Sequence record: MN158218
Direction: 5' to 3' (one strand)
DNA: 53,042 nt
From: Escherichia phage BEC1-17
Shown here: positions 8,610-50,088 of the stretch, one piece after another
Layout: every line of letters starts with the position of its first letter
How positions within the stretch are numbered: the first letter of the stretch is position 1
Translations under genes and position numbers: made by a program
Notes under the pieces: model-generated
Told to the model about the DNA's origin: nothing
The model's input: the letters and a program-made list of their open reading frames with translations, nothing else
Database searches by the model: none

Positions 8610-9095
8610 ATGCAAAAGAAGAAGATGGACAAGTGGGACAGGCGGTTTATGCGCATAGCTTGTGAAGTTGCAAGCTGGTCTAAGGACCCGAAACGCCAAG
8701 TCGGTAGCGTTCTTGTAGACCAGAACAAGCGTATTATTTCCACTGGATATAACGGCTTACCTACGCAGCTAGACTCTATAAGAATAGTGCCTAATAGCCT
8801 CAAGAACGCTCTAACTATTCATAGCGAGATAAACACCTTAGCTAATATAAGGAGGGAGTTAGACACTCCTTCTTTAGGCCCGGTTACCATCTACATAACC
8901 TACCCGCCGTGCGAACATTGTGCTGACATGCTGATAGCCAACCTTAACCTGGTACGTGTAGTTGCATTGGCACATACAGCTTCACAATCCAAATGGAAAG
9001 ATAGCATGGCAAATGCTGTCGCTCACTTGTGGGCACATAATATTGTGTACGATGAATTCAGCATTGAGGAGTTTAATAATGCCCAGTCCGTTTGA
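8610..9095 (+). CDS. dCMP/cytidine deaminase-family zinc enzyme
   Basis: HSE (H-x-E) and PCEHC (PCxxC) zinc-binding motifs in correct order and spacing. Confidence 0.7.
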   Translation: MQKKKMDKWDRRFMRIACEVASWSKDPKRQVGSVLVDQNKRIISTGYNGLPTQLDSIRIVPNSLKNALTIHSEINTLANIRRELDTPSLGPVTIYITYPPCEHCADMLIANLNLVRVVALAHTASQSKWKDSMANAVAHLWAHNIVYDEFSIEEFNNAQSV

Positions 9096-12503: not shown

Positions 12504-12720
12504 ATTCAATGGACATCCTTACATCTCTCTTCTTATCAACAATCAATTAAGCCTGGTGTGTTGAAACAGTGAGGGTGTCCAGTGAATGCAGTTCAATTCT
12601 GCTCGCTGACCGAGATTTGGTAAAAGCCGTGATGTGTGAGGTTCGATTCCTCCGACGCTGAAAAGGGTATTGGCTCGCTACCTTGACCCCAGGCGCCTGG
12701 TGTAGACGGCGGTCACAATT

Positions 12721-12807
12721 TTAGTTGTGGTGTTTTGGCGTATCTTTTTGACACCCGTCGGGTGCAGGTTATCCACAATAACTCAGGTGCTAAGACACCA
12801 CAACTAA
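12721..12807. repeat. 13-bp perfect inverted repeat TTAGTTGTGGTGT / ACACCACAACTAA (arms 12721-12733 and 12795-12807), ~61-nt spacer
   Basis: read directly; spacer contains palindrome CACCCG-T-CGGGTG. Confidence 0.8.
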
Positions 12808-12814
12808 GGTTGTA

Positions 12815-12893
12815 CTTGCTGTGTGCTTTTGCCACTCCATCGGTGTGATAAGTGCAACGCTCTATACTTTCCGCGGTGAGAGCACACAGCAAG
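12815..12893. repeat. 13-bp perfect inverted repeat CTTGCTGTGTGCT / AGCACACAGCAAG (arms 12815-12827 and 12881-12893), ~53-nt spacer
   Basis: read directly; extendable to ~15 bp. Confidence 0.8.
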
Positions 12894-13087
12894 TAACGCA
12901 TATGTGATTGGCTACTCGATGACACCTCCTTTTCGTCTCGTCGCGGGGATTAAAATGGTAAATCTTTTGGCCAATCTCATATGCGCTGCCTGGTTGCATA
13001 GTTACGATGCCTTGTATCTCCTTACGCCACCCTGCCAAAAGGACCAGTTAACGCTGGTCCTTTTTATTTTTACCAGAAGCGTAAAAA

Positions 13088-13120
13088 GTGCTTTACCACT
13101 AGAGAGTGATGTGGTATAAT
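13088..13120 (+). promoter_or_regulatory. sigma70-like promoter (TTTACC-N17-TATAAT with TGG extended -10)
   Basis: AAGTGCTTTACC at 13086-13097; TATAAT 13115-13120; 26 nt upstream of the ATG at 13147. Confidence 0.55.
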
Positions 13121-13146
13121 AAGTTATCTTTTAGAGGAGAGATACA

Positions 13147-13545
13147 ATGAACCTACAACGTGTTGCTGAAGCTTATTACAGGATTTGGATACTTCGGCTA
13201 GAGGGCCAAATCGACTACGTGAACACCGTCGGCCGCGAAGATTACTTGCCTGCATCTTCTTTCCAGGAAGTATGCAACATTGCTCAAACTCTTGAACATG
13301 AATTTGATAAGGTCAAGTTTACACGCGATGTGCAAACAAACTTTATCAAGTTTGAAACAACCATGCGCTGTAAATTCCCGTTTATCAAGCGCATATCCCG
13401 TACCGGCCTTTTCATTGTTCCCTTTCCTGTGGGTAAAGAACGTTGGGACACTTTAGAACAGGCTCGTCATATTATCTGGTCTACAGAAATTAAACGTAAG
13501 TTTATCGAAACTGTTTGTAAGGAGTTACGAAATGCGATTCAGTAA
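13147..13545 (+). CDS. hypothetical protein
   Basis: ATG 13147 preceded by AGAGGAGAG. Confidence 0.5.
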   Translation: MNLQRVAEAYYRIWILRLEGQIDYVNTVGREDYLPASSFQEVCNIAQTLEHEFDKVKFTRDVQTNFIKFETTMRCKFPFIKRISRTGLFIVPFPVGKERWDTLEQARHIIWSTEIKRKFIETVCKELRNAIQ

Positions 13546-14125
13546 AATTGCTGCAGGCGTTACCGCTTTTCATGAGAAGTTTGACCTCAAGCCTGTTAGT
13601 CAAGGCGGTAAACCTGAGTTCAAGCTTCGCTATGACCGTCTTATTGAGGAGATGGAAGAAATTAAACAAGCTAAGAAGGACGGCGATAAAGCTGGATTCT
13701 TAGACGGTATTGTAGATTTAATTTACATTGCTGCAGGTACGTTATATCTGTATGACCAGACTGCATGGTTCACCAACGAATTTGAGTATCCGATTCTGTT
13801 AACTACGCCATGCGGATTTATGGACCGCTTCGATGCTGACGGCCTTATTGTATACGTTAAGGATACTGAAGACACTCATTGCGACCGCCTGGCCCAGTTA
13901 ATTATCCACCTGATTACCTGGTGTGCAAACAACAACTGGCCACTTGACGCAGCATGGGATGCGGTACAGGCTGCTAACATGGCGAAAGAACGCGCTAAAC
14001 CTGATGCAAGCAACAGCAAGCATAAGTCTGGTCAGGATATTGTTAAGCCTGAAGGATGGAAAGCGCCTGACATCCAGGCCATTATCGACGCACACGTTAA
14101 CCCGGCTCAAAAGGAACTGTTTTAA
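13532..14125 (+). CDS. possible MazG-like all-alpha NTP pyrophosphohydrolase (dCTPase/dUTPase-type role)
   Basis: EEMEE ... D..VD acidic motif pattern; position directly upstream of the TS-family gene; weak motif-only evidence. Confidence 0.35.
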   Translation: MRFSKIAAGVTAFHEKFDLKPVSQGGKPEFKLRYDRLIEEMEEIKQAKKDGDKAGFLDGIVDLIYIAAGTLYLYDQTAWFTNEFEYPILLTTPCGFMDRFDADGLIVYVKDTEDTHCDRLAQLIIHLITWCANNNWPLDAAWDAVQAANMAKERAKPDASNSKHKSGQDIVKPEGWKAPDIQAIIDAHVNPAQKELF

Positions 14126-15009
14126 TGAAAACATACAGCACTGTCGATTCTCTTTACAGCGACATCATTTCTTTTATCCTGCGTAAAGGCGAGGATGTTG
14201 TAGACCGTACAGGTGTTGGTACACGCCGTTGTTTTGGTACAGCGTTTAAGCTGGCTTTCAACGATAACAAACTGATGGTGCCGGTGTTTAAACCTGTTAA
14301 CATCAAAGCTGTTGCTGCTGAGCTTTACTGCTTTATCAACGGCATTTCAAACGTCGACACGCTCAAAGGCTTTGGCTGCAACTGGTGGGAAGGTAACCTG
14401 CAGGATGCAAACAAACGTTGGGGTACGCCAGACAACCGTGACTTAGGTCCGGTATACGGCGTGCAATGGATTAAGCCTTTCTATAAGAATGGTGTTCTTA
14501 CTAACCAGCTTAAAGATGTTATTGAAACGCTGAAGGTTAAGCCTACTGACCGCCGGGCGTACATTACGGCTTGGAACCCACAAGAGATGGACGCCATGGC
14601 CCTTCCGCCTTGTTACCATGGTTTTCAGCTGTTCATTAACAACCGTAATGAATTAGAGCTGATGTTCCACATGCGTAGCGCGGATGTTATCCTTGGTCTG
14701 CCTCACGATATTCTGTTGCATCAGATGTTGCAGATTACCATTGCTGCTGAGCTGGGTACTGGGGTAGGTGATATGACTGTTACGCTGGGTGACTATCACA
14801 TCTATCAGAATCATATCGATGCGGCAAAGATTTTCCTGCAACGTATCGTAAGCAATTCTGATACTACACTGGACACTAACTTTGATGGTCGTCCTGACAT
14901 TAACGCAATTTACGACGTGTCAGTGTTTGACTTCACTCCTGCCGATGTTACGCCAATGGTTGAGAAGTACAAACCAATGCCAAACATCAAACTCCAAATG
15001 GCCGTATAA
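14125..15009 (+). CDS. thymidylate synthase-family pyrimidine hydroxymethylase (dCMP hydroxymethylase-like)
   Basis: TS fold signatures RRAYITAWNP, ALPPCYH (catalytic Cys), RSADVILGLPHD, GDYHIYQNH; Asp replaces ThyA Asn177 in the GLP(F/H)(N/D) motif. Confidence 0.7.
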   Translation: MKTYSTVDSLYSDIISFILRKGEDVVDRTGVGTRRCFGTAFKLAFNDNKLMVPVFKPVNIKAVAAELYCFINGISNVDTLKGFGCNWWEGNLQDANKRWGTPDNRDLGPVYGVQWIKPFYKNGVLTNQLKDVIETLKVKPTDRRAYITAWNPQEMDAMALPPCYHGFQLFINNRNELELMFHMRSADVILGLPHDILLHQMLQITIAAELGTGVGDMTVTLGDYHIYQNHIDAAKIFLQRIVSNSDTTLDTNFDGRPDINAIYDVSVFDFTPADVTPMVEKYKPMPNIKLQMAV

Positions 15010-15015
15010 GATGGA

Positions 15016-15032
15016 GCGGGGCTTCGGCCCCG
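15016..15032 (+). terminator. hairpin GCGGGGCTTCGGCCCCG between TS-family gene and next gene
   Basis: perfect GC stem with TTCG loop; weak T-tract (TTATACT). Confidence 0.45.
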
Positions 15033-15039
15033 TTATACT

Positions 15040-16035
15040 ATGAGCAAGTTTAACTATGACACCAAACAAATACAGACTGCCGTTCAACAAGCTCGTCCCA
15101 TCAAGTATACTGATAGTGGTCTTATGGGCAAAATATGGATTGCAAACGGAACAATCCATTCATACTACAAGAACGTATTACTACGAGCGCCATGTAAAGG
15201 ATTCCCAGACCTGCAAGTGGATGCTGAATCATTTCGTAAGGCCGTTAATGCGGCAAGAACTGAACAGATTACTTTTAACATTACAGCCGCTGGAAACCTC
15301 ACAGTCACAGCAGGTGTACTTAAAACAAGAATGCAAGCGCTTAATGAACCAATACCGCCACTTGCTACAGTTAACAACTGGTATTCAGCGCATGGCGAAT
15401 TACTCCCGGTATTAACTGCCTTAGCCAAGTGGGTACCTAACGAAGCACCGCAGGTATGGGCAACATCTTTACTTCTGCGCGATGGTTATGCTTACGCAAC
15501 TAACGGTAAGTATATGATACGCGAGAAGTTGAACGTAGATTTTGAATTTGAATGTGCCATAGCCAAACCAATGCTTGAGGCTCTGGTTAAGCTGAAGATG
15601 GAACCCACAAGTGTAGGATACGCCCGCGGCCAGATGTTCTTCGGCTTTGCGGATGGTGTACAGATGGATGCTCCGGTACTAGCAGCCAAATGGCCAGACG
15701 TATCGAAGTTCTTCAATATGGAAATGGATATGCAGGCCATCACTCCTGAGTTCCTGGAAGTCATGGACCAGCTTACTGGGTACGACGAAGGTCAGGCTAT
15801 TCTGGAGATAACAGGCGAGTCAACTGCAAAGGCAGACTTACCAGATAAGATTATTCCAAAGATGTCCGTCGACATTAAGTTCCAGTCGACTAAGTTTAGT
15901 AAACCGTTCAACTGTGTTATTAGTCAGATGAGTAAACTGGCTAAAGGCATGGAAAGAATAGGGCTGGGTAGTCAGGCGCTCAAAATGGAAAACTCAACTC
16001 GTACAGTTGTAATTGCGTATGTGAGAGGGGATTGA
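15040..16035 (+). CDS. hypothetical protein (upstream of and coupled to DNA polymerase)
   Basis: 331-aa ORF; ATGA overlap with polymerase start. Confidence 0.45.
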   Translation: MSKFNYDTKQIQTAVQQARPIKYTDSGLMGKIWIANGTIHSYYKNVLLRAPCKGFPDLQVDAESFRKAVNAARTEQITFNITAAGNLTVTAGVLKTRMQALNEPIPPLATVNNWYSAHGELLPVLTALAKWVPNEAPQVWATSLLLRDGYAYATNGKYMIREKLNVDFEFECAIAKPMLEALVKLKMEPTSVGYARGQMFFGFADGVQMDAPVLAAKWPDVSKFFNMEMDMQAITPEFLEVMDQLTGYDEGQAILEITGESTAKADLPDKIIPKMSVDIKFQSTKFSKPFNCVISQMSKLAKGMERIGLGSQALKMENSTRTVVIAYVRGD

Positions 16036-18002
16036 TGAGCTTTTTATTCGATAGCTTCGAAGGTGCAAAGAATGTTAAACCTATCAACCGTCCTATACCA
16101 TACGTCAGGGATACTGGATGGCGGCCGCGCGCGCATTACCCGGATTTGTCTTCTGCAAAGATTATCGGTCTTGACTGTGAAACATACGACCCAGGGATGG
16201 ATACAAATGGTAGTGGTTGGGCCAGGAGGGAGGGTCATATCGTTGGAGTTAGTATCGCTACGGACAACGGCTTCAAAGCTTACTACCCAATCAGACACGA
16301 GCTCGGCGAAGAGGATAACCTTCCAGCTGAGGAAGTACTTGGTTGGCTTCGGCTCGAACTCTCGCGACCTAACCAAGTTAAAGTCGGTGCTAACATCACA
16401 TATGACTTGGGCTGGCTTGCAGCAGAAGGCGTGGAAGTCAAAGGATTGTGCATGGATGTACAATTCGCGGAAGCATTACTTGACCCAGGCGCGCGTGTTG
16501 CACTTGAAGGACTTGGACGAAAGTATGTAGGCGAAGGTAAAGACTCAGCCGAGATGTACCAATGGATTTCAGATGCTTATGGCTGTAAGCCAACAGGTGA
16601 AGCCAGAAAGTACATCTACAAAACGCCTCCTCGTCTTGTGGGTTACTATGCTGAATCTGACGCCGACTTACCAATACACATTATCAAAGCCCAGTGGCCT
16701 TTGTTAAGTCGCTGGTGTTTAACAGACGTATTCTATATGGAGTGCAAGCTCATTCCATTAATGCTTAAGATGCGTTTTGCAGGTGTGCGTGTTGACCTTG
16801 ACAAAGCCAAAGAGGCGGATGATACGCTTAGCGCTGAAATAAGGAAAATGCACCAGCAGATTAAAGACCAGATTGGCTTTAACATTAACGTTAACTCAGG
16901 TCCGGACTTAGCTCTTGCATTTGACCATCTTGGTCTGGAGTACTTCAGAACAGCGGCGGGCAATCCGTCGTTTACGGCAGACTTCTTAGCAGGCTTACAC
17001 CATCCGTTTGCGGAACTGGTGTCTGAGATTAAGTCTTATGAGAAAATCCAGTCCACGTTTATTCGTGGCTATATATTGGGGATGAATACAAATGGCTTCC
17101 TTCACGGTCAATTCCATCAAATGCGCGGTGATGACGGTGGAACCGTTAGTGGTCGGTTTAGCTCATCTGACCCTAATCTGCAGAATATACCGTCTAGACA
17201 CAAAATACTGGGACCACTCCTTCGTGCTTGTTTCGTACCGGATGTCGGACACAGATGGGGATCAGCAGACTACGCCCAAATTGAATATCGATTCATGGCG
17301 CATTTTGCAGTCGGCCCGGGCGCTGATGAGTTACGAGCAATTTTCGCGGCTAACCCGGAAGCAGATTACCACAATGTTATGGTCGATATTATCAAGGAAG
17401 CCTCAGGTCACGTTATAGAGCGTAAACCGGCTAAGACCATTAACTTTGGTTTGTTGTATGGCATGATGCTTAATGCTCTTGCCCGTAAGTTAGCAATGAC
17501 GCCTGAAGAAGCGGAACCTGTTCTGAAGGCGTATCATCAGGGTGCACCATTCATTGGTGCTACCATGAAGCATTATGAAGACTTATGTTATAGCCAGGGG
17601 TATGTAGAAACTTTTATGGGCCGGAAGACGTGGTTCAACAAATGGGTCCCAAAACGTGGCGGATTCGGTAAGATGCCTTTACCATTTGAAGAAGCACGTC
17701 AAGAATACGGCCCGAACATTAAACTGGCAGACACCCACAAGGCAATCAACCGAGTGCTGCAAGGGTCGTCAGCAGACCAGATGAAGTCTGCAATGCTGAA
17801 AGGGTATGAAGACGGTTACTTTGACGTGATTGGCGTACCTCGCCTGACGGTACACGATGAGCTTAACTTCTCTCTACCAACTGGTAAGCAAGCAGAAGAT
17901 GGATTCTATGATTTCGTACGGGTCATGGAAACTGTACTACCGCTTCGTGTACCTGTTCTTACTGATGCTAAGATAGAAAGTAACTGGGCAGAGGCACACT
18001 AA
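16032..18002 (+). CDS. family-A DNA polymerase with 3'-5' proofreading exonuclease domain
   Basis: Exo I LDCETYD, Exo II ITYDLGW, Exo III YYAESDADL; motif B RKPAKTINFGLLYGM; motif C VHDEL. Confidence 0.9.
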   Translation: MMSFLFDSFEGAKNVKPINRPIPYVRDTGWRPRAHYPDLSSAKIIGLDCETYDPGMDTNGSGWARREGHIVGVSIATDNGFKAYYPIRHELGEEDNLPAEEVLGWLRLELSRPNQVKVGANITYDLGWLAAEGVEVKGLCMDVQFAEALLDPGARVALEGLGRKYVGEGKDSAEMYQWISDAYGCKPTGEARKYIYKTPPRLVGYYAESDADLPIHIIKAQWPLLSRWCLTDVFYMECKLIPLMLKMRFAGVRVDLDKAKEADDTLSAEIRKMHQQIKDQIGFNINVNSGPDLALAFDHLGLEYFRTAAGNPSFTADFLAGLHHPFAELVSEIKSYEKIQSTFIRGYILGMNTNGFLHGQFHQMRGDDGGTVSGRFSSSDPNLQNIPSRHKILGPLLRACFVPDVGHRWGSADYAQIEYRFMAHFAVGPGADELRAIFAANPEADYHNVMVDIIKEASGHVIERKPAKTINFGLLYGMMLNALARKLAMTPEEAEPVLKAYHQGAPFIGATMKHYEDLCYSQGYVETFMGRKTWFNKWVPKRGGFGKMPLPFEEARQEYGPNIKLADTHKAINRVLQGSSADQMKSAMLKGYEDGYFDVIGVPRLTVHDELNFSLPTGKQAEDGFYDFVRVMETVLPLRVPVLTDAKIESNWAEAH

Positions 18003-45668: not shown

Positions 45669-46396
45669 CAGATTACCCCTTCCATAGCATCCATATGCTT
45701 ACGGATAAAGTTAAGACGGTCTGCCAGGTCGTCTGCACGACGTTTTTCAGCGTCACGCTGGGCAATAAGCGCTTTACGCTCTTCGCTGAAAGCACGGTTG
45801 TTAGCAACAGCTGTACCATTAAGGCTACGAATCTCAGCCTCATATTCTTCAGCACGCTTGCTCATCAGTTGCTGCAGGTCCGTAATCTGCCGTTTATAGG
45901 CAGTGATAAGCTCAGACGCATCTTTATTGCAGCTTTCCAGCTTGCAGATATGCTCCTGCAGCATATGTACATGTGCCCAGCCTTTAGCAATTTCGCGAGC
46001 TGACATATCAGCTAACATACGGTCTGACATAGGAGCGCCAGCGTAGTTTGAGGCCTTGCACAAGTACCAGTTTAGCGCACTGCTAAACATCTCACCAGTA
46101 CGATATTCCAGCTCGTCGTTGAACTTTTTGGTTTCCAGCTGTTCACGAGTTTCATCATCCGGCAATGAAGAGGCCGCAATACTGATGCTGTGTGGACATC
46201 CTTCGACGTTAATTTCGATGCTGACGCCTTCAGTACCAGTCACTTCGTTATCTTCAATAGCACGTTTGGCCAGGCGCAGCAGGTCTTCACCTGACAGGTT
46301 CGGGTTAGTTGAACCCACAGTAACTGTCTTGTTGACGTCTCCTACGGTTGCTGACAGTGTGATTGTGCTATTGTATACTGGGCTCATTTGTTCCAC
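45668..46396 (-). CDS. hypothetical protein
   Basis: 242-aa ORF coupled to flanking genes. Confidence 0.4.
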   Translation of the reverse strand: MEQMSPVYNSTITLSATVGDVNKTVTVGSTNPNLSGEDLLRLAKRAIEDNEVTGTEGVSIEINVEGCPHSISIAASSLPDDETREQLETKKFNDELEYRTGEMFSSALNWYLCKASNYAGAPMSDRMLADMSAREIAKGWAHVHMLQEHICKLESCNKDASELITAYKRQITDLQQLMSKRAEEYEAEIRSLNGTAVANNRAFSEERKALIAQRDAEKRRADDLADRLNFIRKHMDAMEGVI

Positions 46397-46890
46397 TCCT
46401 TATTAATACGTTCGTTGATGTATTCGAGAACTGCTTCAGGACCATCTTCTTCAACAGTCCAGTCGTAAATGAAGAACTGCTTACTCATCATAACCAGCTC
46501 GTCAATGAGGTTGTCATACTGGTTGTATAACGCCTCAAGATTTTCCACAACACCAGGCATTTCGTCTTTTGTAGTTGCCAGTACCTTTTCAACAGGCGGC
46601 ATACAAAAGATAACGATGGCGTTGTCACACATATCTGCTACATGTGATACATTAATATTGATGACAGTCGTACGTTGAAGAACCAGGCAATAGATATACT
46701 CAGATATAACAGCGCTACGGTCATAAATGCAATTGCCTTCCAACGCGTTTTCTTTGGCCTGTTTAGCCATGACCGATTCGTGGTCTTTATCAACAGTATT
46801 ATGAATAACACTGCGGCCAGTACGAGATCTAAGGAACTCAATAAGTGTACTTTTACCAGCATTGTCGGGACCCTCGATTATGATGTTCAT
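46384..46890 (-). CDS. thymidylate-kinase-like dNMP kinase
   Basis: P-loop IEGPDNAGKST and DRS (DR-motif) typical of TMK-family kinases. Confidence 0.55.
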   Translation of the reverse strand: MNIIIEGPDNAGKSTLIEFLRSRTGRSVIHNTVDKDHESVMAKQAKENALEGNCIYDRSAVISEYIYCLVLQRTTVININVSHVADMCDNAIVIFCMPPVEKVLATTKDEMPGVVENLEALYNQYDNLIDELVMMSKQFFIYDWTVEEDGPEAVLEYINERINKEWNK

Positions 46891-47561
46891 TTGTGTAAAC
46901 TCCTGTAGCGTTGTATCAGCACTTGTTTGTTATCAACATATTCATCATTATAAGTAAAGTCGCTATCAATGTACATCATTAATTTGCTACAATCCATTAA
47001 AATATCACTTGGACCTGATTGCTTGATTGTACTGATAAACATGTTGTCGATACGGAGTAAGTCTTTTGCATGCTCTTCAAGGGCCGAAAGTATCAACTCG
47101 GCACCGCCTACAATCCAGACGTCAGTGCCTCTTGATTCAAGGTCTGCTGCCATCTCACCCAAATTATTGTAGCCTTCTGAAGCCATAATCTGACGAGATA
47201 CCGGCAGCAGTATTCTGTGGGCTGACATAGGCAGACTCATAGTCATATACGTGTTACGACCGGCTAACAATACACTATGCCCTACCATTTTTACCGTTAC
47301 ATCTGCTATCATGTTTCGCAACTGGTCATTTGGGAATTGTCCACGTAGTTGCTGATATGCATTATAGCCTGGTTCTGTCGCAACTGAATTAGTCATAGTC
47401 CTGAAAAAGAGCATGTCTGACGGACATTTCCAGGGGAGACCTGATTTAGGAAGCGCACGAACCTCTTCCATAGTCTTGCATGAGTCAACCTGATGCTTCA
47501 TAAACTCCGGAGATAACCCAAATTCCCCATTTTGGCCCATTGCAAAGATAATATTAATCAC
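46887..47561 (-). CDS. dihydrofolate reductase
   Basis: IIFAMGQNGEFG ... LPW ... LLAGRNTY ... WIVGGAELI matches DHFR motif order. Confidence 0.6.
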   Translation of the reverse strand: MINIIFAMGQNGEFGLSPEFMKHQVDSCKTMEEVRALPKSGLPWKCPSDMLFFRTMTNSVATEPGYNAYQQLRGQFPNDQLRNMIADVTVKMVGHSVLLAGRNTYMTMSLPMSAHRILLPVSRQIMASEGYNNLGEMAADLESRGTDVWIVGGAELILSALEEHAKDLLRIDNMFISTIKQSGPSDILMDCSKLMMYIDSDFTYNDEYVDNKQVLIQRYRSLHK

Positions 47562-48039
47562 CTAAAAAGCCCCCAGTAGTGTCAGTCAAAAGCGAGTTCA
47601 TAACGTCTTGTGGCAGTATCACAGGATGGTTACCTGTTTCGATTTTTGGCTTATGTTTTGGCGCTTTTTTGCGCTCCAGGTACTCATCATGGGCCTTACA
47701 AATGGCATTTACGATGAAATCATGCTGATATGCGTACCATTCATCGTTTTCTGGGTCGTATTTAAGGCCAACATAGTTCATCAGCGATGACATTACGTGA
47801 ATGCCTTCGTGGGAAATGGTGTTGTACTTCAGGTCGTCCGGGTGGTACAGTTCGACGACTATTAGCAGGTACGGATAATTAACGCGAGAGAACGTAAAAG
47901 TAGATGCATTACGCGTTTCCCGGTCATTCCAGTTGCCAAAATCAGGCAAATCCATCAGTTTTTGGAGCTCTTCGTGCTCTTTTTCGCTGCAAACGACAGC
48001 CAATTGAGGCGGATATGGCTCTAATTGAACAATTTTCAT
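47554..48039 (-). CDS. putative HExxH zinc metallopeptidase-like protein
   Basis: HEGIH motif in ~161-aa protein; start uncertain (GTG 48051 or ATG 48039). Confidence 0.35.
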   Translation of the reverse strand: MKIVQLEPYPPQLAVVCSEKEHEELQKLMDLPDFGNWNDRETRNASTFTFSRVNYPYLLIVVELYHPDDLKYNTISHEGIHVMSSLMNYVGLKYDPENDEWYAYQHDFIVNAICKAHDEYLERKKAPKHKPKIETGNHPVILPQDVMNSLLTDTTGGFLGD

Positions 48040-48269
48040 AATGTTACCCACAAGTAGGAGACCGTGAGGCCGTTTGATGATTCACATTAATGATAGCGCG
48101 TGGATGAGAGAAAGTACACCACTTTTTAGTGAGTGTCTACACAGTTCCCGAAAAATATAAAAATTTTTAGAGGGGCTTCACTTATTATTGTGTTAAGCAA
48201 AAGGTTAGCTCCTGTCGTATCAATCTGATGATGATTGGTACTGATAAGGAGAAAATAGAGAAAAAATAA

Positions 48270-48346
48270 AAAATTTTGCTGGCTCCTGGCAGGTAGCACC
48301 CTTGCGAAATTACCCCCCGCCGCACCTATTTCGATTGAAATGATTA
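48270..48346 (+). repeat. direct repeat copy R1 (~77 bp)
   Basis: shares GC(C/T)GGCTCCT ... GCACCC ... CCCCCGCCG ... GATTGA ... ATTAC blocks with R2. Confidence 0.7.
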
Positions 48347-48445
48347 CTCTGGTAACTATTGTGATTGATACAATTACCGTGTGAACTACTTCGGCCGTTA
48401 TAACACAAAGCGTCTATAATTCAGATTGAAATTATATTTTTATAA

Positions 48446-48522
48446 ATAATTTCGCCGGCTCCTTTAAGTGGCACCCCTACGTTACTATAACCCCCGCCGA
48501 CCATTTTGGATTGAGTAATTAC
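48446..48522 (+). repeat. direct repeat copy R2 (~77 bp)
   Basis: about 70 percent identical to R1, same orientation, 176 bp downstream. Confidence 0.7.
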
Positions 48523-48859
48523 ATGCGAAACTATATCAATTGCATACGAGAACCACTCTCAATCGCAAGTGATTATCATTTCTAAAAACTTGCATAAACT
48601 TGCAATTCTTTTATGTACAACATTGATTGACTGGCCTATAATTATTACATCAAGACGAATGATGAATGTGTCAAGCGTCTTGTCCGGCGCGCGTCGTCAA
48701 GATGCGCAAATAATAACTTTACCTGGTCGAATAGTACCAGACCGCTCTTTAACAATTTGGTAACATGTTTCTTGTTGATAGTAACGCTGGTAATAGTTTC
48801 AACTAGTGGCTATTGGAAGCAGTAGCCACGCCTGGAAACTAATAGCAGGAGTAACTATT

Positions 48860-49009
48860 ATGAAAGACAACTACACGCTTTGGTATGATTGTAATGAAGG
48901 GCTATGGTGTGTCAACATTAATAATGGACCAGTCCCAGACTTTGAATCAATGGACGTGGAAGATTGTGTTGATTTCATCCAGTCGCAAGTAGTCAAATAT
49001 CAAGGGTAA
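48860..49009 (+). CDS. hypothetical small protein
   Basis: ATG 48860 after AGGAG. Confidence 0.35.
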   Translation: MKDNYTLWYDCNEGLWCVNINNGPVPDFESMDVEDCVDFIQSQVVKYQG

Positions 49010-49023
49010 GAGGGTCATACAAG

Positions 49024-49203
49024 ATGAAAGATTTGAAACTGACTAAAAAAGAAGTTGAGTTATTGGTTGAATTTCTTGACATTTCAATATTTAATGAAAA
49101 GGAACTGCTGGAGGACTGGAAGGAGTCAATTGAAAACTTTGACCCTACTGACCAGGAAGAAAGAGTTGAGCTATTGACCAAAATACTTAACAAATTGAAG
49201 TGA
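49024..49203 (+). CDS. small protein, MKDLKLT-family paralog 1 (59 aa; below the ORF-track cut-off)
   Basis: own translation: MKDLKLTKKEVELLVEFLD...; RBS AAGAGGG. Confidence 0.4.
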   Translation: MKDLKLTKKEVELLVEFLDISIFNEKELLEDWKESIENFDPTDQEERVELLTKILNKLK

Positions 49204-49210
49204 TTTCAAT

Positions 49211-49237
49211 CATGACAGCTTGACAAAAGTTGTCATG
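49211..49237 (+). terminator. palindromic hairpin CATGACA...TGTCATG followed by TTTGG
   Basis: 7-bp outer arms and inner TGACAA/TTGTCA arms, 8 nt after stop codon. Confidence 0.35.
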
Positions 49238-49298
49238 TTTGGACTTACTTGCCAGGGATTGGCGCTTACCAAAATTCTATTGACGAGGATACATCAAA

Positions 49299-49865
49299 AT
49301 GACTGCTACTAACTACGTTTACCTGACTTCCGCCTTTTCTGTCGAGTCTGTAAAATCTGGTCTGACTACTGAAAGTCTTGGGACTATTGTAGTGCAGATG
49401 GATAGCCTGCAGTACTTTGCCAATAACCAGATCATTAAGATGATCAAGTCCCTTAATGATGAAAGTTCTGTAAGTGTCAAAGACTCAAAAGAAGTGCTGG
49501 TGAAAGCCCTATTTGATGAGCTTAACCAACTGGAAGTTGAAGAGGTCAAAGTTGCGGCATCACGTGCATCTGCAGGTGGCACCCGCAAAACTTCATCCGG
49601 TCCGTCAACCAAAGATACCTGCTATGCAGTATTCAAGGATTACAATTTGATGGACAAAGAAGATTCCAAATTGGCGCTGGCTGATGCCATGAAAGCCTGT
49701 GGGATGGAAGCGGATGATATTAGGGCAAAACGTGTTGTCCAATCATATATGTCATACTACCGTAATGATGTAAAATCTGGTAAAGTGACTGACGGCAAAT
49801 CAGTAACAGGCAAAAAACCTGAAGCTGAAGAAAAACCTGAAATTGAAGAACAAGAAACTGAGTAA
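49299..49865 (+). CDS. hypothetical protein
   Basis: 188-aa ORF. Confidence 0.45.
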   Translation: MTATNYVYLTSAFSVESVKSGLTTESLGTIVVQMDSLQYFANNQIIKMIKSLNDESSVSVKDSKEVLVKALFDELNQLEVEEVKVAASRASAGGTRKTSSGPSTKDTCYAVFKDYNLMDKEDSKLALADAMKACGMEADDIRAKRVVQSYMSYYRNDVKSGKVTDGKSVTGKKPEAEEKPEIEEQETE

Positions 49866-49929
49866 TTTTTGAGATGGCACTCAAGTAGTGCCATCAATTG
49901 AAATTATTCACAATCAACAGGAGAGAAAC

Positions 49930-50088
49930 ATGCTTAAAATCAAACTGACCAAAGACCAGGCGATGGCTTTGCGGGATATGATGATTGAGTTAGAGAAGAT
50001 GGGCACTTTTTCTGATAGTTCTCACACTTCAACTCTTGATTATATCGTTGAAACCATTGACGACAAATTTTCAGGTTCTGAGGAGTAA
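49930..50088 (+). CDS. small protein, MKDLKLT-family paralog 2
   Basis: MLKIKLTKDQAMALRDMMIELEK...; RBS AGGAGAGAAAC-ATG. Confidence 0.4.
   Translation: MLKIKLTKDQAMALRDMMIELEKMGTFSDSSHTSTLDYIVETIDDKFSGSEE

What the first reader, a model, noticed from the sequence alone, without database searches (positions are those of the whole stretch)
13532..15009. Thymidylate-synthase-family enzyme with Asp at the ThyA Asn177 position, in a nucleotide-modification gene set: predicted hydroxymethylated-pyrimidine (5-hmC-type) DNA
Seen in sequence: the 14125..15009 product has all thymidylate synthase fold signatures (RRAYITAWNP, ALPPCYH, GDYHIYQNH), but in the substrate-specificity motif it reads RSADVILGLPHD where ThyA reads RSCDVFLGLPFN. 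Established knowledge: Asn177 selects dUMP in ThyA, Asp at this position is the hallmark of T4-type dCMP hydroxymethylase, and N177D switches ThyA toward dCMP. The window also encodes a dCMP deaminase-family enzyme (8610..9095), a MazG-like candidate (13532..14125, possible dCTPase role), a TMK-like dNMP kinase (46384..46890) and DHFR (46887..47561). Inference: this is the enzyme set needed to make a 5-hydroxymethyl-pyrimidine nucleotide and keep the canonical one out of phage DNA, in a phage whose polymerase is family A rather than T4-like. No glycosyltransferase was recognised, so any further decoration would reside in unassigned ORFs.
Basis: partly seen in the sequence, partly recalled or inferred. 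Interest (0 to 1): 0.75.

Follow-up and report, generated by a model that had tools for sequence, protein, structure and literature searches.

The report
Phage enzyme set for 5-methylcytosine DNA
This Salmonella/E. coli phage carries a thymidylate-synthase look-alike retuned to act on cytosine nucleotides, with helper enzymes; it most likely replaces cytosine in the phage DNA with 5-methylcytosine (not 5-hydroxymethylcytosine), which would explain why DNA of related phages resists restriction enzymes.

Summary
ORF 14125..15009 is a full-length thymidylate synthase (TS) family protein with Asp (D195) at the E. coli ThyA Asn177 position. The window is a Rosemountvirus genome, 98.6% identical to Salmonella phage BP63.

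The enzyme almost certainly takes dCMP. The rest of its active site is that of a methyl-transferring TS, not of T4 dCMP hydroxymethylase:
- Leu at position 143, where T4 gp42 has Asp.
- Asp169, Trp80, Trp83 and Tyr94 are kept.
- The TS-type C-terminal lid is kept; gp42 lacks it.

It is the only TS-family gene in the genome, and the phage also encodes DHFR. The upstream gene, translationally coupled to it, is a PRA-PH/dimeric-dUTPase-fold pyrophosphohydrolase homologous to the one next to the Xp12 dCMP methylase. A dCMP-deaminase-family enzyme and a dNMP kinase complete an Xp12-type set.

Published digests of relatives S144 and fHy-Eco03 show an unexplained block at C-containing sites. ScaI cuts fHy-Eco03 DNA, as it partly cuts 5mC DNA but not 5hmC DNA.

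Best reading: pre-replicative replacement of C by 5-methylcytosine. This is a new, independently evolved member of a known kind.

The parts
14125..15009 (+). TS-family enzyme, predicted dCMP C5-methyltransferase (5-methyl-dCMP synthase). Key residues, with E. coli numbering in brackets: C163 (C146), D195 (N177), Y164 (H147), H194 (F176), W87 (I79), L160 (L143), D187 (D169), W88 (W80), W99 (W83), Y111 (Y94); C-terminus ...PNIKLQMAV.
   Evidence: Pfam Thymidylat_synt E 2.7e-62. Alignments; codon positions. AlphaFold pLDDT 92.7, and the 50 best PDB matches are all canonical TS with TM up to 0.85. It is the only TS-family locus in the window.
13532..14125 (+). All-alpha NTP pyrophosphohydrolase (PRA-PH/MazG type, dimeric-dUTPase-like fold). 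Predicted dCTP (and possibly dUTP) pyrophosphatase that supplies dCMP and keeps dCTP out of phage DNA. Its TAA stop overlaps the ATG of the TS gene (TAATG).
13147..13545 (+). 132-aa ORF of unknown function; first gene of the transcription unit. It overlaps the start of the pyrophosphohydrolase gene by 14 nt.
   Evidence: phrog_36727, unknown function; no Pfam hit. Conserved at this position in S144, SOI901 and fHy-Eco03. No ORF of that size (132 aa, overlapping the pyrophosphohydrolase start) precedes the gene in the more distant relatives L011 and L012, where a 159-165-aa ORF lies further upstream; it was not compared.
13037..13120 (+). Terminator-like hairpin (13037..13064, 12-bp stem followed by a T run), then a promoter-like site (13092..13120, TTTACC-17-TATAAT with TG). 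These are the likely boundaries of the unit ORF132 - pyrophosphohydrolase - TS - clamp - PolA.
   Evidence: Consensus scan; pattern match only.
8610..9095 (+). dCMP-deaminase-family enzyme. Predicted to deaminate a share of the 5-methyl-dC nucleotide pool to thymidine nucleotide (and/or dCMP to dUMP).
   Evidence: Pfam dCMP_cyt_deam_1 2.5e-21 and MafB19-deam 4.3e-12. 34% identical to the Xp12 dCMP deaminase, E 6e-24. The role is inferred from Xp12 and the MetaGPA deaminases.
46384..46890 (-). P-loop dNMP (thymidylate-kinase-like) kinase. Predicted to phosphorylate 5-methyl-dCMP.
   Evidence: phrog_761 'thymidylate kinase' 6.9e-27; weak NCBIfam dTMP-kinase P-loop hits. 29% identical (E 2e-10) to the kinase encoded between PRA-PH and a D177 TS in metagenomic locus L014.
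46887..47561 (-). Dihydrofolate-reductase-like protein. It would recycle the dihydrofolate made by reductive methylation.
   Evidence: phrog_316 2.1e-26; Pfam DHFR_1 4.8e-7. Xp12 and PaMx74 encode DHFR next to their TS homologs.
15040..18002 (+). Processivity-factor-like protein (15040..16035) and family A DNA polymerase with 3'-5' exonuclease (16032..18002), directly downstream. This is the polymerase that must accept the modified dNTP.
   Evidence: phrog_947 3.5e-47; Pfam DNA_pol_A 4.6e-63 and DNA_pol_A_exo1 7e-8.

Best explanation
The locus is the core of an Xp12-type, pre-replicative pathway that replaces cytosine with 5-methylcytosine. The proposed steps are:
1. The pyrophosphohydrolase (13532..14125) hydrolyses dCTP to dCMP. 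This depletes the canonical triphosphate and feeds the next enzyme.
2. The TS-family enzyme (14125..15009) binds dCMP through Asp195. Like a normal TS, it transfers the methylene of 5,10-methylene-THF and then a hydride, giving 5-methyl-dCMP plus dihydrofolate.
3. The phage DHFR regenerates tetrahydrofolate.
4. The phage dNMP kinase and host NDP kinase raise 5-methyl-dCMP to the triphosphate.
5. The family A polymerase incorporates it.
6. The dCMP-deaminase-family enzyme converts part of the 5-methyl-dC nucleotide pool into thymidine nucleotide. This explains why no dUMP-specific TS is encoded.

Shown here: the residue identities, the single TS locus, homology of four components to the Xp12/PaMx74 set, and synteny across relatives. 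Inferred: every substrate and product, and the composition of the virion DNA.
For: - Substrate. Asp lies at the 177 position in an ungapped motif. His147 is replaced by Tyr; positions 177 and 147 are the two that best separate TS homologs of modified-cytosine contigs from those of unmodified contigs (PMC8670742).
- Product. Leu143, Asp169, Trp80, Trp83, Tyr94 and the TS C-terminal lid are retained, whereas T4 gp42 has Asp143 and no lid. The residue code comes from PMC13326640. The model's 50 best PDB matches are all canonical TS.
- There is only one TS-family locus, and the phage encodes DHFR. Hydroxymethylases yield THF and do not need DHFR (PMC5175136).
- The pyrophosphohydrolase is homologous to the PRA-PH protein upstream of the Xp12 and PaMx74 TS homologs. 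The deaminase is 34% identical to the Xp12 one. The Xp12 TS homolog makes 5mdCMP, and Xp12 DNA is fully 5mC (bioRxiv 10.1101/2024.12.05.627091).
- Thymidylat_synt, PRA-PH, DNA_pol_A and its exonuclease are the domains reported to co-localise with dCMP deaminases on modified-cytosine contigs. Five of seven tested TS homologs from such contigs made 5mdCMP.
- Three distant PRA-PH homologs each neighbour a D177 TS plus a deaminase.
- Relatives with the same TS active-site residues have modified DNA. S144 is cut only by SspI and PacI. fHy-Eco03 is cut only by ScaI out of 10 enzymes. On Xp12 (5mC) DNA, ScaI cuts partially and the other reported enzymes (those named in the paper's methods) or their isoschizomers are blocked; EagI and MauBI were not looked up. 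On T4gt (5hmC) DNA, ScaI is blocked.
Against: - There is no biochemical or nucleoside data for this phage or any phage of its genus.
- The Leu143 rule is a correlation. In Xp12 itself the aligned residue is ambiguous (Leu/Gln or Asn) because of a 4-residue insertion.
- The clade has extra active-site changes (I79W, F176H, H147Y) in the folate and pyrimidine pockets, and their effect is unknown.
- Phage CF2, 97.9% identical over 13000..17000, is recorded on E. coli K-12 MG1655. From general knowledge, that strain carries McrBC, McrA and Mrr, which cut 5mC DNA. An unidentified anti-restriction function or a different modification would be needed.
- The ScaI argument rests on one enzyme, complete versus partial cutting, and different laboratories.
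Confidence: 0.6

Rival explanations
1. One reading: the enzyme is a dCMP hydroxymethylase and the DNA carries 5-hydroxymethylcytosine, possibly decorated further by unassigned ORFs.
For: - Asp at the 177 position is shared with T4 gp42.
- The DNA of relatives is resistant at C-containing sites.
- Growth on McrBC-positive K-12 would be easier to explain with a decorated hmC.
- Some PRA-PH-linked D177 homologs elsewhere do have a polar or acidic residue at 143 (L014 has Asp).
Against: - Leu143, not Asp/Glu (rule).
- The TS C-terminal lid and Trp83 are kept, unlike gp42.
- Only 21% identity and 35 bits to gp42, against 134 bits to E. coli ThyA.
- DHFR is encoded and there is no second TS.
- No glycosyltransferase or other transferase was found in the ten unknown ORFs scanned, nor in the annotations of SPLA11 and S144.
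- ScaI cuts fHy-Eco03 DNA but not 5hmC DNA.
Confidence: 0.12
2. No DNA modification in this phage. Either the enzyme still serves dTMP supply directly on dUMP despite Asp195, or dCMP goes to 5-methyl-dCMP, which the deaminase converts completely to dTMP. The virion DNA would be canonical.
For: - The protein is closer to canonical ThyA than to any proven dCMP-modifying enzyme.
- All GenBank records examined that annotate this gene with a function call it thymidylate synthase.
- A deaminase that turns 5-methyl-dC nucleotides into thymidine nucleotides is part of the known Xp12 logic.
- Two clade members (P0013, P0020) carry Asn at 177, so the scaffold can apparently serve either state.
Against: - Asp177, Tyr147 and His176 are fixed in 29 of 31 clade clusters, against 0 of 89 of the other listed homologs.
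- The coupled pyrophosphohydrolase and the extra kinase have no obvious role in a plain dTMP route.
- Two relatives with the same active-site residues have DNA blocked at C-containing sites.
Confidence: 0.1
3. The enzyme makes a different C5 product, or 5mC/5hmC is only a precursor for a further, undescribed hypermodification made by ORFs of unknown function.
For: - The clade-specific changes I79W, F176H and H147Y line the folate and pyrimidine pocket. TS homologs have recently been shown to do unexpected chemistry, namely flavin-dependent 5-hydroxylation.
- Growth of CF2 on MG1655.
- The fHy-Eco03 authors could not explain their digests by the known methylation sensitivity of the enzymes used.
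- Many early ORFs have no assigned function.
Against: - The 5-hydroxy-dCMP synthase marker D169N is absent; Asp187 is present.
- No transferase, dioxygenase or DNA methyltransferase domain was detected.
- ScaI cutting argues for a small substituent.
Confidence: 0.15

Closest known systems
Xanthomonas phage Xp12 / Pseudomonas phage PaMx74 dCMP methyltransferase module (TS homolog, PRA-PH hydrolase, dCMP deaminase, DHFR; DNA with C fully replaced by 5mC)
   Same: - Asp at position 177, non-His at 147, Asp169.
- A PRA-PH pyrophosphohydrolase gene immediately upstream of the TS gene, with detectable homology (BLASTP 3e-11; database-wide E 3.3e-6).
- A homologous dCMP deaminase (34% identity).
- DHFR present, a family A polymerase nearby, and no second TS.
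   Different: - The TS proteins are only 28% identical, and in an NJ tree the window clade sits beside canonical ThyA, apart from the Xp12 clade. This looks like an independent origin of Asp177.
- The window enzyme keeps Trp83, an unambiguous Leu143 and the ThyA-type C-terminus; Xp12 has Phe83, a 4-residue insertion before Cys146 and a different tail.
- The window pyrophosphohydrolase lacks the C-terminal domain of about 100 residues found in the Xp12 protein and has an insertion of about 50 residues.
- Deaminase, DHFR and kinase are dispersed around the genome rather than adjacent.
- The host is enterobacterial and the virion is a myovirus.
Canonical thymidylate synthase ThyA (E. coli, human and others)
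   Same: - Same fold over the full length (TM up to 0.85).
- All catalytic residues are kept: C146, R21, R126/127, R166, S167, D169, E58, W80, W83, Y94, H207, Y209, L143 and the C-terminal lid.
- Highest sequence similarity of any characterised relative (32-37% identity).
   Different: Asn177 to Asp, His147 to Tyr, Phe176 to His, Ile79 to Trp. These are fixed across the phage clade and absent from all 89 of the other listed homologs surveyed. The predicted substrate is dCMP, not dUMP.
T4 gp42 dCMP hydroxymethylase, with gp56 dCTPase
   Same: - Asp at the 177-equivalent position.
- Pre-replicative logic: a dCTP-hydrolysing all-alpha NTPase, a TS homolog and a dNMP kinase.
- gp56 matches Pfam's dimeric-dUTPase family (dUTPase_2), and solved dimeric dUTPases are the closest folds to the window pyrophosphohydrolase.
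   Different: - gp42 has Asp143, lacks Trp83 and the C-terminal lid, and is 21% identical.
- gp56 shows no sequence similarity to the window protein.
- T4 also has a separate dUMP-specific Td and glucosyltransferases; none is found here.
RB69 gp48 / DLP3 gp80 5-hydroxy-dCMP synthases (flavin-dependent TS homologs)
   Same: TS-family enzymes with Asp177 acting on dCMP.
   Different: Their diagnostic D169N and L143E substitutions are absent here, where Asp187 and Leu160 are present. No arabinosyl- or glycosyltransferase genes were found.

Membership tests
Thymidylate synthase / dCMP hydroxymethylase superfamily (Pfam PF00303) | Full-length match to the family profile and the TS fold | tested here: met
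   E 2.7e-62 over profile positions 3-266 of 266. Model pLDDT 92.7, TM up to 0.85 to solved TS structures.
Thymidylate synthase / dCMP hydroxymethylase superfamily (Pfam PF00303) | Catalytic Cys146 and the phosphate-binding arginines (R21, R126, R127, R166) plus S167 | tested here: met
   C163, R28, R143, R144, R184 and S185 are present and invariant across the clade.
Canonical dUMP-specific thymidylate synthase (ThyA) | Asn at position 177 (selects dUMP) and His at 147 | tested here: not met
   Asp195 and Tyr164. All 89 of the other listed homologs have Asn and His. NCBIfam ThyA equivalog models score below their cut-offs, except the broad TIGR03284.
dCMP-directed TS homologs (methylases, hydroxymethylases, hydroxylases) | Asp at the position of E. 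coli Asn177 | tested here: met
   Ungapped alignment RSADVILGLPHD against RSCDVFLGLPFN.
dCMP methyltransferase (5-methyl-dCMP synthase, Xp12 type) | Non-acidic, hydrophobic residue at position 143 and retention of the hydride-transfer apparatus (W80, Y94, C-terminal lid) | tested here: met
   Leu160 in MALPPC against E. coli MALAPC. W88, W99 and Y111 are kept, and the C-terminus ...IKLQMAV aligns with ...IKAPVAI. The rule is taken from PMC13326640 and PMC5175136.
dCMP methyltransferase (5-methyl-dCMP synthase, Xp12 type) | Enzyme converts dCMP plus CH2-THF to 5-methyl-dCMP plus DHF | not testable with these tools
   Needs the recombinant enzyme, or the in vivo assay with T4 gp1 used in bioRxiv 10.1101/2024.12.05.627091.
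dCMP methyltransferase (5-methyl-dCMP synthase, Xp12 type) | Virion DNA with C replaced by 5mC | not testable with these tools
   Only indirect evidence: digests of relatives S144 and fHy-Eco03 are consistent with 5mC.
dCMP methyltransferase (5-methyl-dCMP synthase, Xp12 type) | Common descent with the Xp12/PaMx74 enzyme | tested here: not met
   28% identity. The NJ tree puts the window clade with canonical ThyA, separate from Xp12/PaMx74. It is therefore filed as working like Xp12, not as an ortholog.
T4-type dCMP hydroxymethylase | Acidic residue (Asp/Glu) at position 143 and an open active site lacking the TS C-terminal segment | tested here: not met
   Leu160, and the full C-terminal segment is present. 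T4 gp42 aligned alongside shows Asp and ends early.
5-hydroxy-dCMP synthase (RB69 gp48 type) | Asn at position 169 (D169N) | tested here: not met
   Asp187.
All-alpha NTP pyrophosphohydrolase (MazG / PRA-PH / dimeric dUTPase superfamily), for ORF 13532..14125 | Family profile match, helical-bundle fold and the acidic metal-binding motif (EExxE...D) | tested here: met
All-alpha NTP pyrophosphohydrolase (MazG / PRA-PH / dimeric dUTPase superfamily), for ORF 13532..14125 | dCTP as substrate | not testable with these tools
   Inferred from translational coupling to the TS gene and from constant association with D177 TS homologs.

The most novel reading that the evidence does not exclude
The clade-specific active site (Trp79, Tyr147, His176, Asp177 on an otherwise ThyA-like scaffold) may make, or start the synthesis of, a cytosine modification other than plain 5mC or 5hmC. 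Alternatively the phage may combine full 5mC substitution with an undescribed inhibitor of McrBC/McrA/Mrr. Either would explain how a near-identical phage (CF2) is recorded on E. coli K-12 MG1655.
Probability: 0.15. Interest if true: 0.75.

Novelty: new member of a known kind. Interest (0 to 1): 0.5.

Why it matters
Rosemountvirus and Loughboroughvirus phages are widely isolated and promoted for Salmonella and E. coli biocontrol. Every GenBank record examined that annotates this gene with a function calls it 'thymidylate synthase'.

Two papers reported that DNA of close relatives (S144, fHy-Eco03) resists restriction enzymes, and both said the modification and its genes were unknown. This analysis names the likely gene set and base (5-methylcytosine, incorporated as a nucleotide), so that question can be tested directly.

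It would add an enterobacterial myovirus lineage, with an independently evolved Asp177 enzyme, to the few cultured phages known or predicted to replace C by 5mC.

It has practical consequences for sequencing (nanopore and bisulfite behaviour), cloning, and host range against modification-dependent nucleases. It also points to a source of dCMP methylase, 5mC-nucleotide deaminase and 5mC-tolerant polymerase enzymes.

Tried and rejected
- T4-type hydroxymethylase: rejected as the best reading after aligning gp42 alongside. gp42 has Asp143 and no C-terminal lid, and identity is 21%.
- 5-hydroxy-dCMP synthase: rejected, because the D169N marker is absent.
- A second TS in the genome that could supply dTMP: tblastn with six TS-family queries found only the one locus. 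The Pharokka-annotated twin SPLA11 lists no second thymidylate synthase, ThyX included.
- Hypermodification genes: Pfam scan of ten unknown early or nucleotide-operon ORFs gave only DUF7173, DUF669 and noise. The S144 and SPLA11 annotations list no glycosyltransferase, dioxygenase or DNA methyltransferase. The 'BAH domain' ORF63 of S144 is a 113-aa protein with a marginal score.
- T4 gp56 as a homolog of the MazG-like protein: no sequence similarity.
- PDB sequence searches for the kinase and the pyrophosphohydrolase gave only marginal hits.
- Literature searches for Rosemountvirus or Loughboroughvirus with cytosine modification, dCMP methyltransferase or 5mdCMP found no paper assigning this function in these phages.
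- tRNA scan of the window: none found.
Full report
**What the window is.** The 4-kb region around the finding is 98.6% identical to Salmonella phage BP63 and to about 45 other phages of 51-57 kb that infect Salmonella or E. coli. These belong to the genus Rosemountvirus, so the 53-kb window is essentially one whole phage genome. The kinase and DHFR genes are on the minus strand.

- ORF 14125..15009 (294 aa) matches Pfam Thymidylat_synt over the whole profile (E 2.7e-62).
- In HMMER alignments to solved TS sequences, and in MAFFT alignments with E. coli ThyA, the stretch RSADVILGLPHD aligns without gaps to RSCDVFLGLPFN.
- Asp195 (codon 14707..14709) therefore occupies the Asn177 position and His194 the Phe176 position.
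- An AlphaFold model is confident (pLDDT 92.7). Its 50 best matches in the PDB are all canonical thymidylate synthases, with TM up to 0.85 over about 300 columns.

**The Asp is a fixed trait of a distinct clade.**
- A search of 5.8 billion proteins found 31 clusters with at least 50% identity. Where contig length is informative, they lie on phage-sized contigs of 34-54 kb. The next hits drop sharply to 37% identity; those that carry a source name are bacterial thymidylate synthases.
- 29 of the 31 clade members have Asp177, and all 31 have Trp79, Tyr147 and His176.
- All 89 remaining hits have Asn177, His147, Phe176 and Ile79.
- The clade keeps Cys146, Glu58, Trp80, Tyr94, Arg126, Arg166, Ser167, Asp169, His207, Tyr209, Leu143 and a C-terminus ending ...MAV. 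Arg127 is kept in the 29 Asp177 members and Trp83 in all but P0020.
- In an NJ tree the clade sits next to canonical ThyA. It is separate from the Xp12/PaMx74 enzymes (28% identity) and from T4 gp42 (21%).

**Which product?** Three papers give a residue code.
- Position 177: Asn means dUMP and Asp means dCMP. N177D in ThyA yields 5-methyl-dCMP (PMC8670742).
- Position 143: a bulky hydrophobic residue correlates with a methyl product. Asp or Glu is found in T4-type hydroxymethylases and MilA (PMC13326640).
- Position 169: D169N marks the flavin-dependent 5-hydroxy-dCMP synthases.

The window enzyme reads Asp177, Leu143 and Asp169. I checked the code on T4 gp42, which has Asp143 and ends before the TS C-terminal segment. 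In TS that segment closes over the folate, and T4 CH lacks it. Hydroxymethylases release THF and so do not need DHFR (PMC5175136).

The phage has one TS-family locus only and it encodes DHFR. These features point to reductive methylation of dCMP, not hydroxymethylation.

One caveat applies. For Xp12 itself the residue aligned to position 143 is ambiguous because of a 4-residue insertion. The rule is therefore a correlation, not a law.

**The partner genes.**
- *Pyrophosphohydrolase, 13532..14125.* Its stop overlaps the TS start codon (TAATG).
 - It is a PRA-PH family protein. The acidic motif E39, E40, E43, D58, D62 is invariant in 22 homologs.
 - It is homologous to the PRA-PH 'hydrolase' directly upstream of the TS homologs of Xp12 and PaMx74. 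Xp12 is recovered even at database scale (E 3.3e-6).
 - Three distant homologs (30-40% identity) from metagenomes each lie beside a TS homolog with Asp177 and a dCMP deaminase. One of these loci also has a kinase homologous to the window kinase (E 2e-10).
 - It has no sequence similarity to T4 gp56.
- *Deaminase, 8610..9095.* It is 34% identical to the Xp12 dCMP deaminase.
- *Published context.* In the MetaGPA work, dCMP deaminases on modified-cytosine contigs co-localise with Thymidylat_synt, PRA-PH, DNA_pol_A and its exonuclease. Five of seven tested TS homologs made 5mdCMP. In Xp12, deamination of part of the 5-methyl-dC nucleotide pool supplies thymidine nucleotide without a second TS. The window has all of these domains.
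- *Synteny.* The order deaminase ... pyrophosphohydrolase - TS - clamp - PolA is conserved in relatives whose TS is only 50-56% identical.
- *Transcription.* A terminator-like hairpin and a promoter-like site lie just upstream of ORF 13147.

**Experimental evidence from relatives.**
- Phage S144 (Loughboroughvirus) has a TS 73.5% identical, with the same residues at all 21 positions compared. Seven enzymes with G/C in their sites did not cut its DNA; SspI and PacI did. The authors concluded that cytosine may be modified and found no responsible gene.
- Phage fHy-Eco03 has a TS 58% identical, with the same residues at those positions. Only ScaI out of 10 enzymes cut its DNA, and the authors called this 'an unknown modification'.
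- In the Flodman et al. tables, ScaI cuts Xp12 (5mC) DNA partially. NcoI, NotI, SphI, AflII, Sau3AI, SmaI, XhoI, SacII, PspOMI and SfoI do not cut it. ScaI does not cut T4gt (5hmC) DNA.
- The relatives' patterns therefore fit 5mC better than 5hmC. This rests on one discriminating enzyme.

**What does not fit.** Phage CF2 (97.9% identical over 13000..17000) lists E. coli K-12 MG1655 as host. From general knowledge, MG1655 carries McrBC, McrA and Mrr, which restrict 5mC and 5hmC DNA. Either the phage has an anti-restriction function among its many unassigned early ORFs, or the modification is something else. No transferase, dioxygenase or DNA methyltransferase was detected. The effect of the clade-specific changes I79W, F176H and H147Y, which line the folate and pyrimidine pocket, is unknown.

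**Verdict.**
- Observation: confirmed.
- Interpretation: partly supported. A cytosine-directed enzyme within a modification gene set is supported. A hydroxymethyl product is unlikely.
- Best explanation (confidence about 0.6): an Xp12-type pre-replicative pathway that replaces C with 5-methylcytosine, built around an independently evolved Asp177 TS homolog.
- I found no paper that assigns this function in Rosemountvirus or Loughboroughvirus, and every public record examined that annotates the gene with a function calls it thymidylate synthase.
- It is a new member of a known kind. It is of moderate interest because it offers a testable answer to two published 'unknown modification' reports in phages used for biocontrol.

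Noticed in passing
Proteins P0013 and P0020 (metagenomic contigs of 1.0-1.6 kb; homologs of window 14125..15009): Two members nested inside the Asp177 clade (NJ tree) carry Asn at 177 and Lys at 127, yet keep Tyr147, His176 and Trp79. They look like secondary reversions towards dUMP use, or intermediates.
   Followed up: partly
GenBank KY608966.1 (Escherichia phage CF2), locus L009: This 53-kb record is 97.9% identical to the window over the 4-kb region queried, but its taxonomy line says Straboviridae; Tequatrovirus. It is flagged UNVERIFIED and has no annotation. Its stated host is E. coli K-12 MG1655, which is hard to reconcile with 5mC or 5hmC DNA.
   Followed up: partly
GenBank PP583539.1 ('Listeria phage 220426122051'): A record labelled as a Listeria monocytogenes phage encodes a TS homolog 99.3% identical to the window's and has the same genome size (53,072 bp). 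The host label is probably wrong, or the sample was contaminated.
   Followed up: no
window 13147..13545 (+): A 132-aa ORF of unknown function (phrog_36727) overlaps the start of the pyrophosphohydrolase gene. It is conserved at this position in S144, SOI901 and fHy-Eco03. In L011 and L012 the pyrophosphohydrolase gene has no such overlapping 132-aa ORF; a 159-165-aa ORF lies further upstream and was not compared. It may be an accessory component of the nucleotide module.
   Followed up: partly
window 48001..50000: G+C falls to 0.39 against a genome average of about 0.46, and the sign of GC skew changes near 18 kb and 48 kb. This matches the divergent gene blocks. The region has few long ORFs and, to judge by gene order, corresponds to the promoter-rich gap in S144, which includes the gap where that paper placed a physical genome end.
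   Followed up: no
locus L006 (Erwinia phage SOI901) 1576..1736, compared with window 12572..13147: SOI901 has tRNA-Pro and tRNA-Gln genes in the gap upstream of the ORF132 - pyrophosphohydrolase - TS unit. The window has no tRNA genes at all; the equivalent gap holds only a terminator-like and a promoter-like site.
   Followed up: yes
locus L015 8243..10567 and locus L014 2957..4354 (metagenomic contigs): Other PRA-PH / D177-TS / deaminase cassettes are linked to a family A polymerase fused to a UDG domain (L015) and to a C5 DNA methyltransferase gene (L014). Their TS homologs have Arg or Asp at position 143, so the cassette probably serves several different cytosine modifications.
   Followed up: partly
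locus L007 (fHy-Eco03) annotation: In fHy-Eco03 the TS homolog, the pyrophosphohydrolase, ORF132 and the DNA polymerase are all annotated as 'virion associated' from LC-MS/MS of particles. This is more likely carry-over of abundant replication proteins than true packaging.
   Followed up: no
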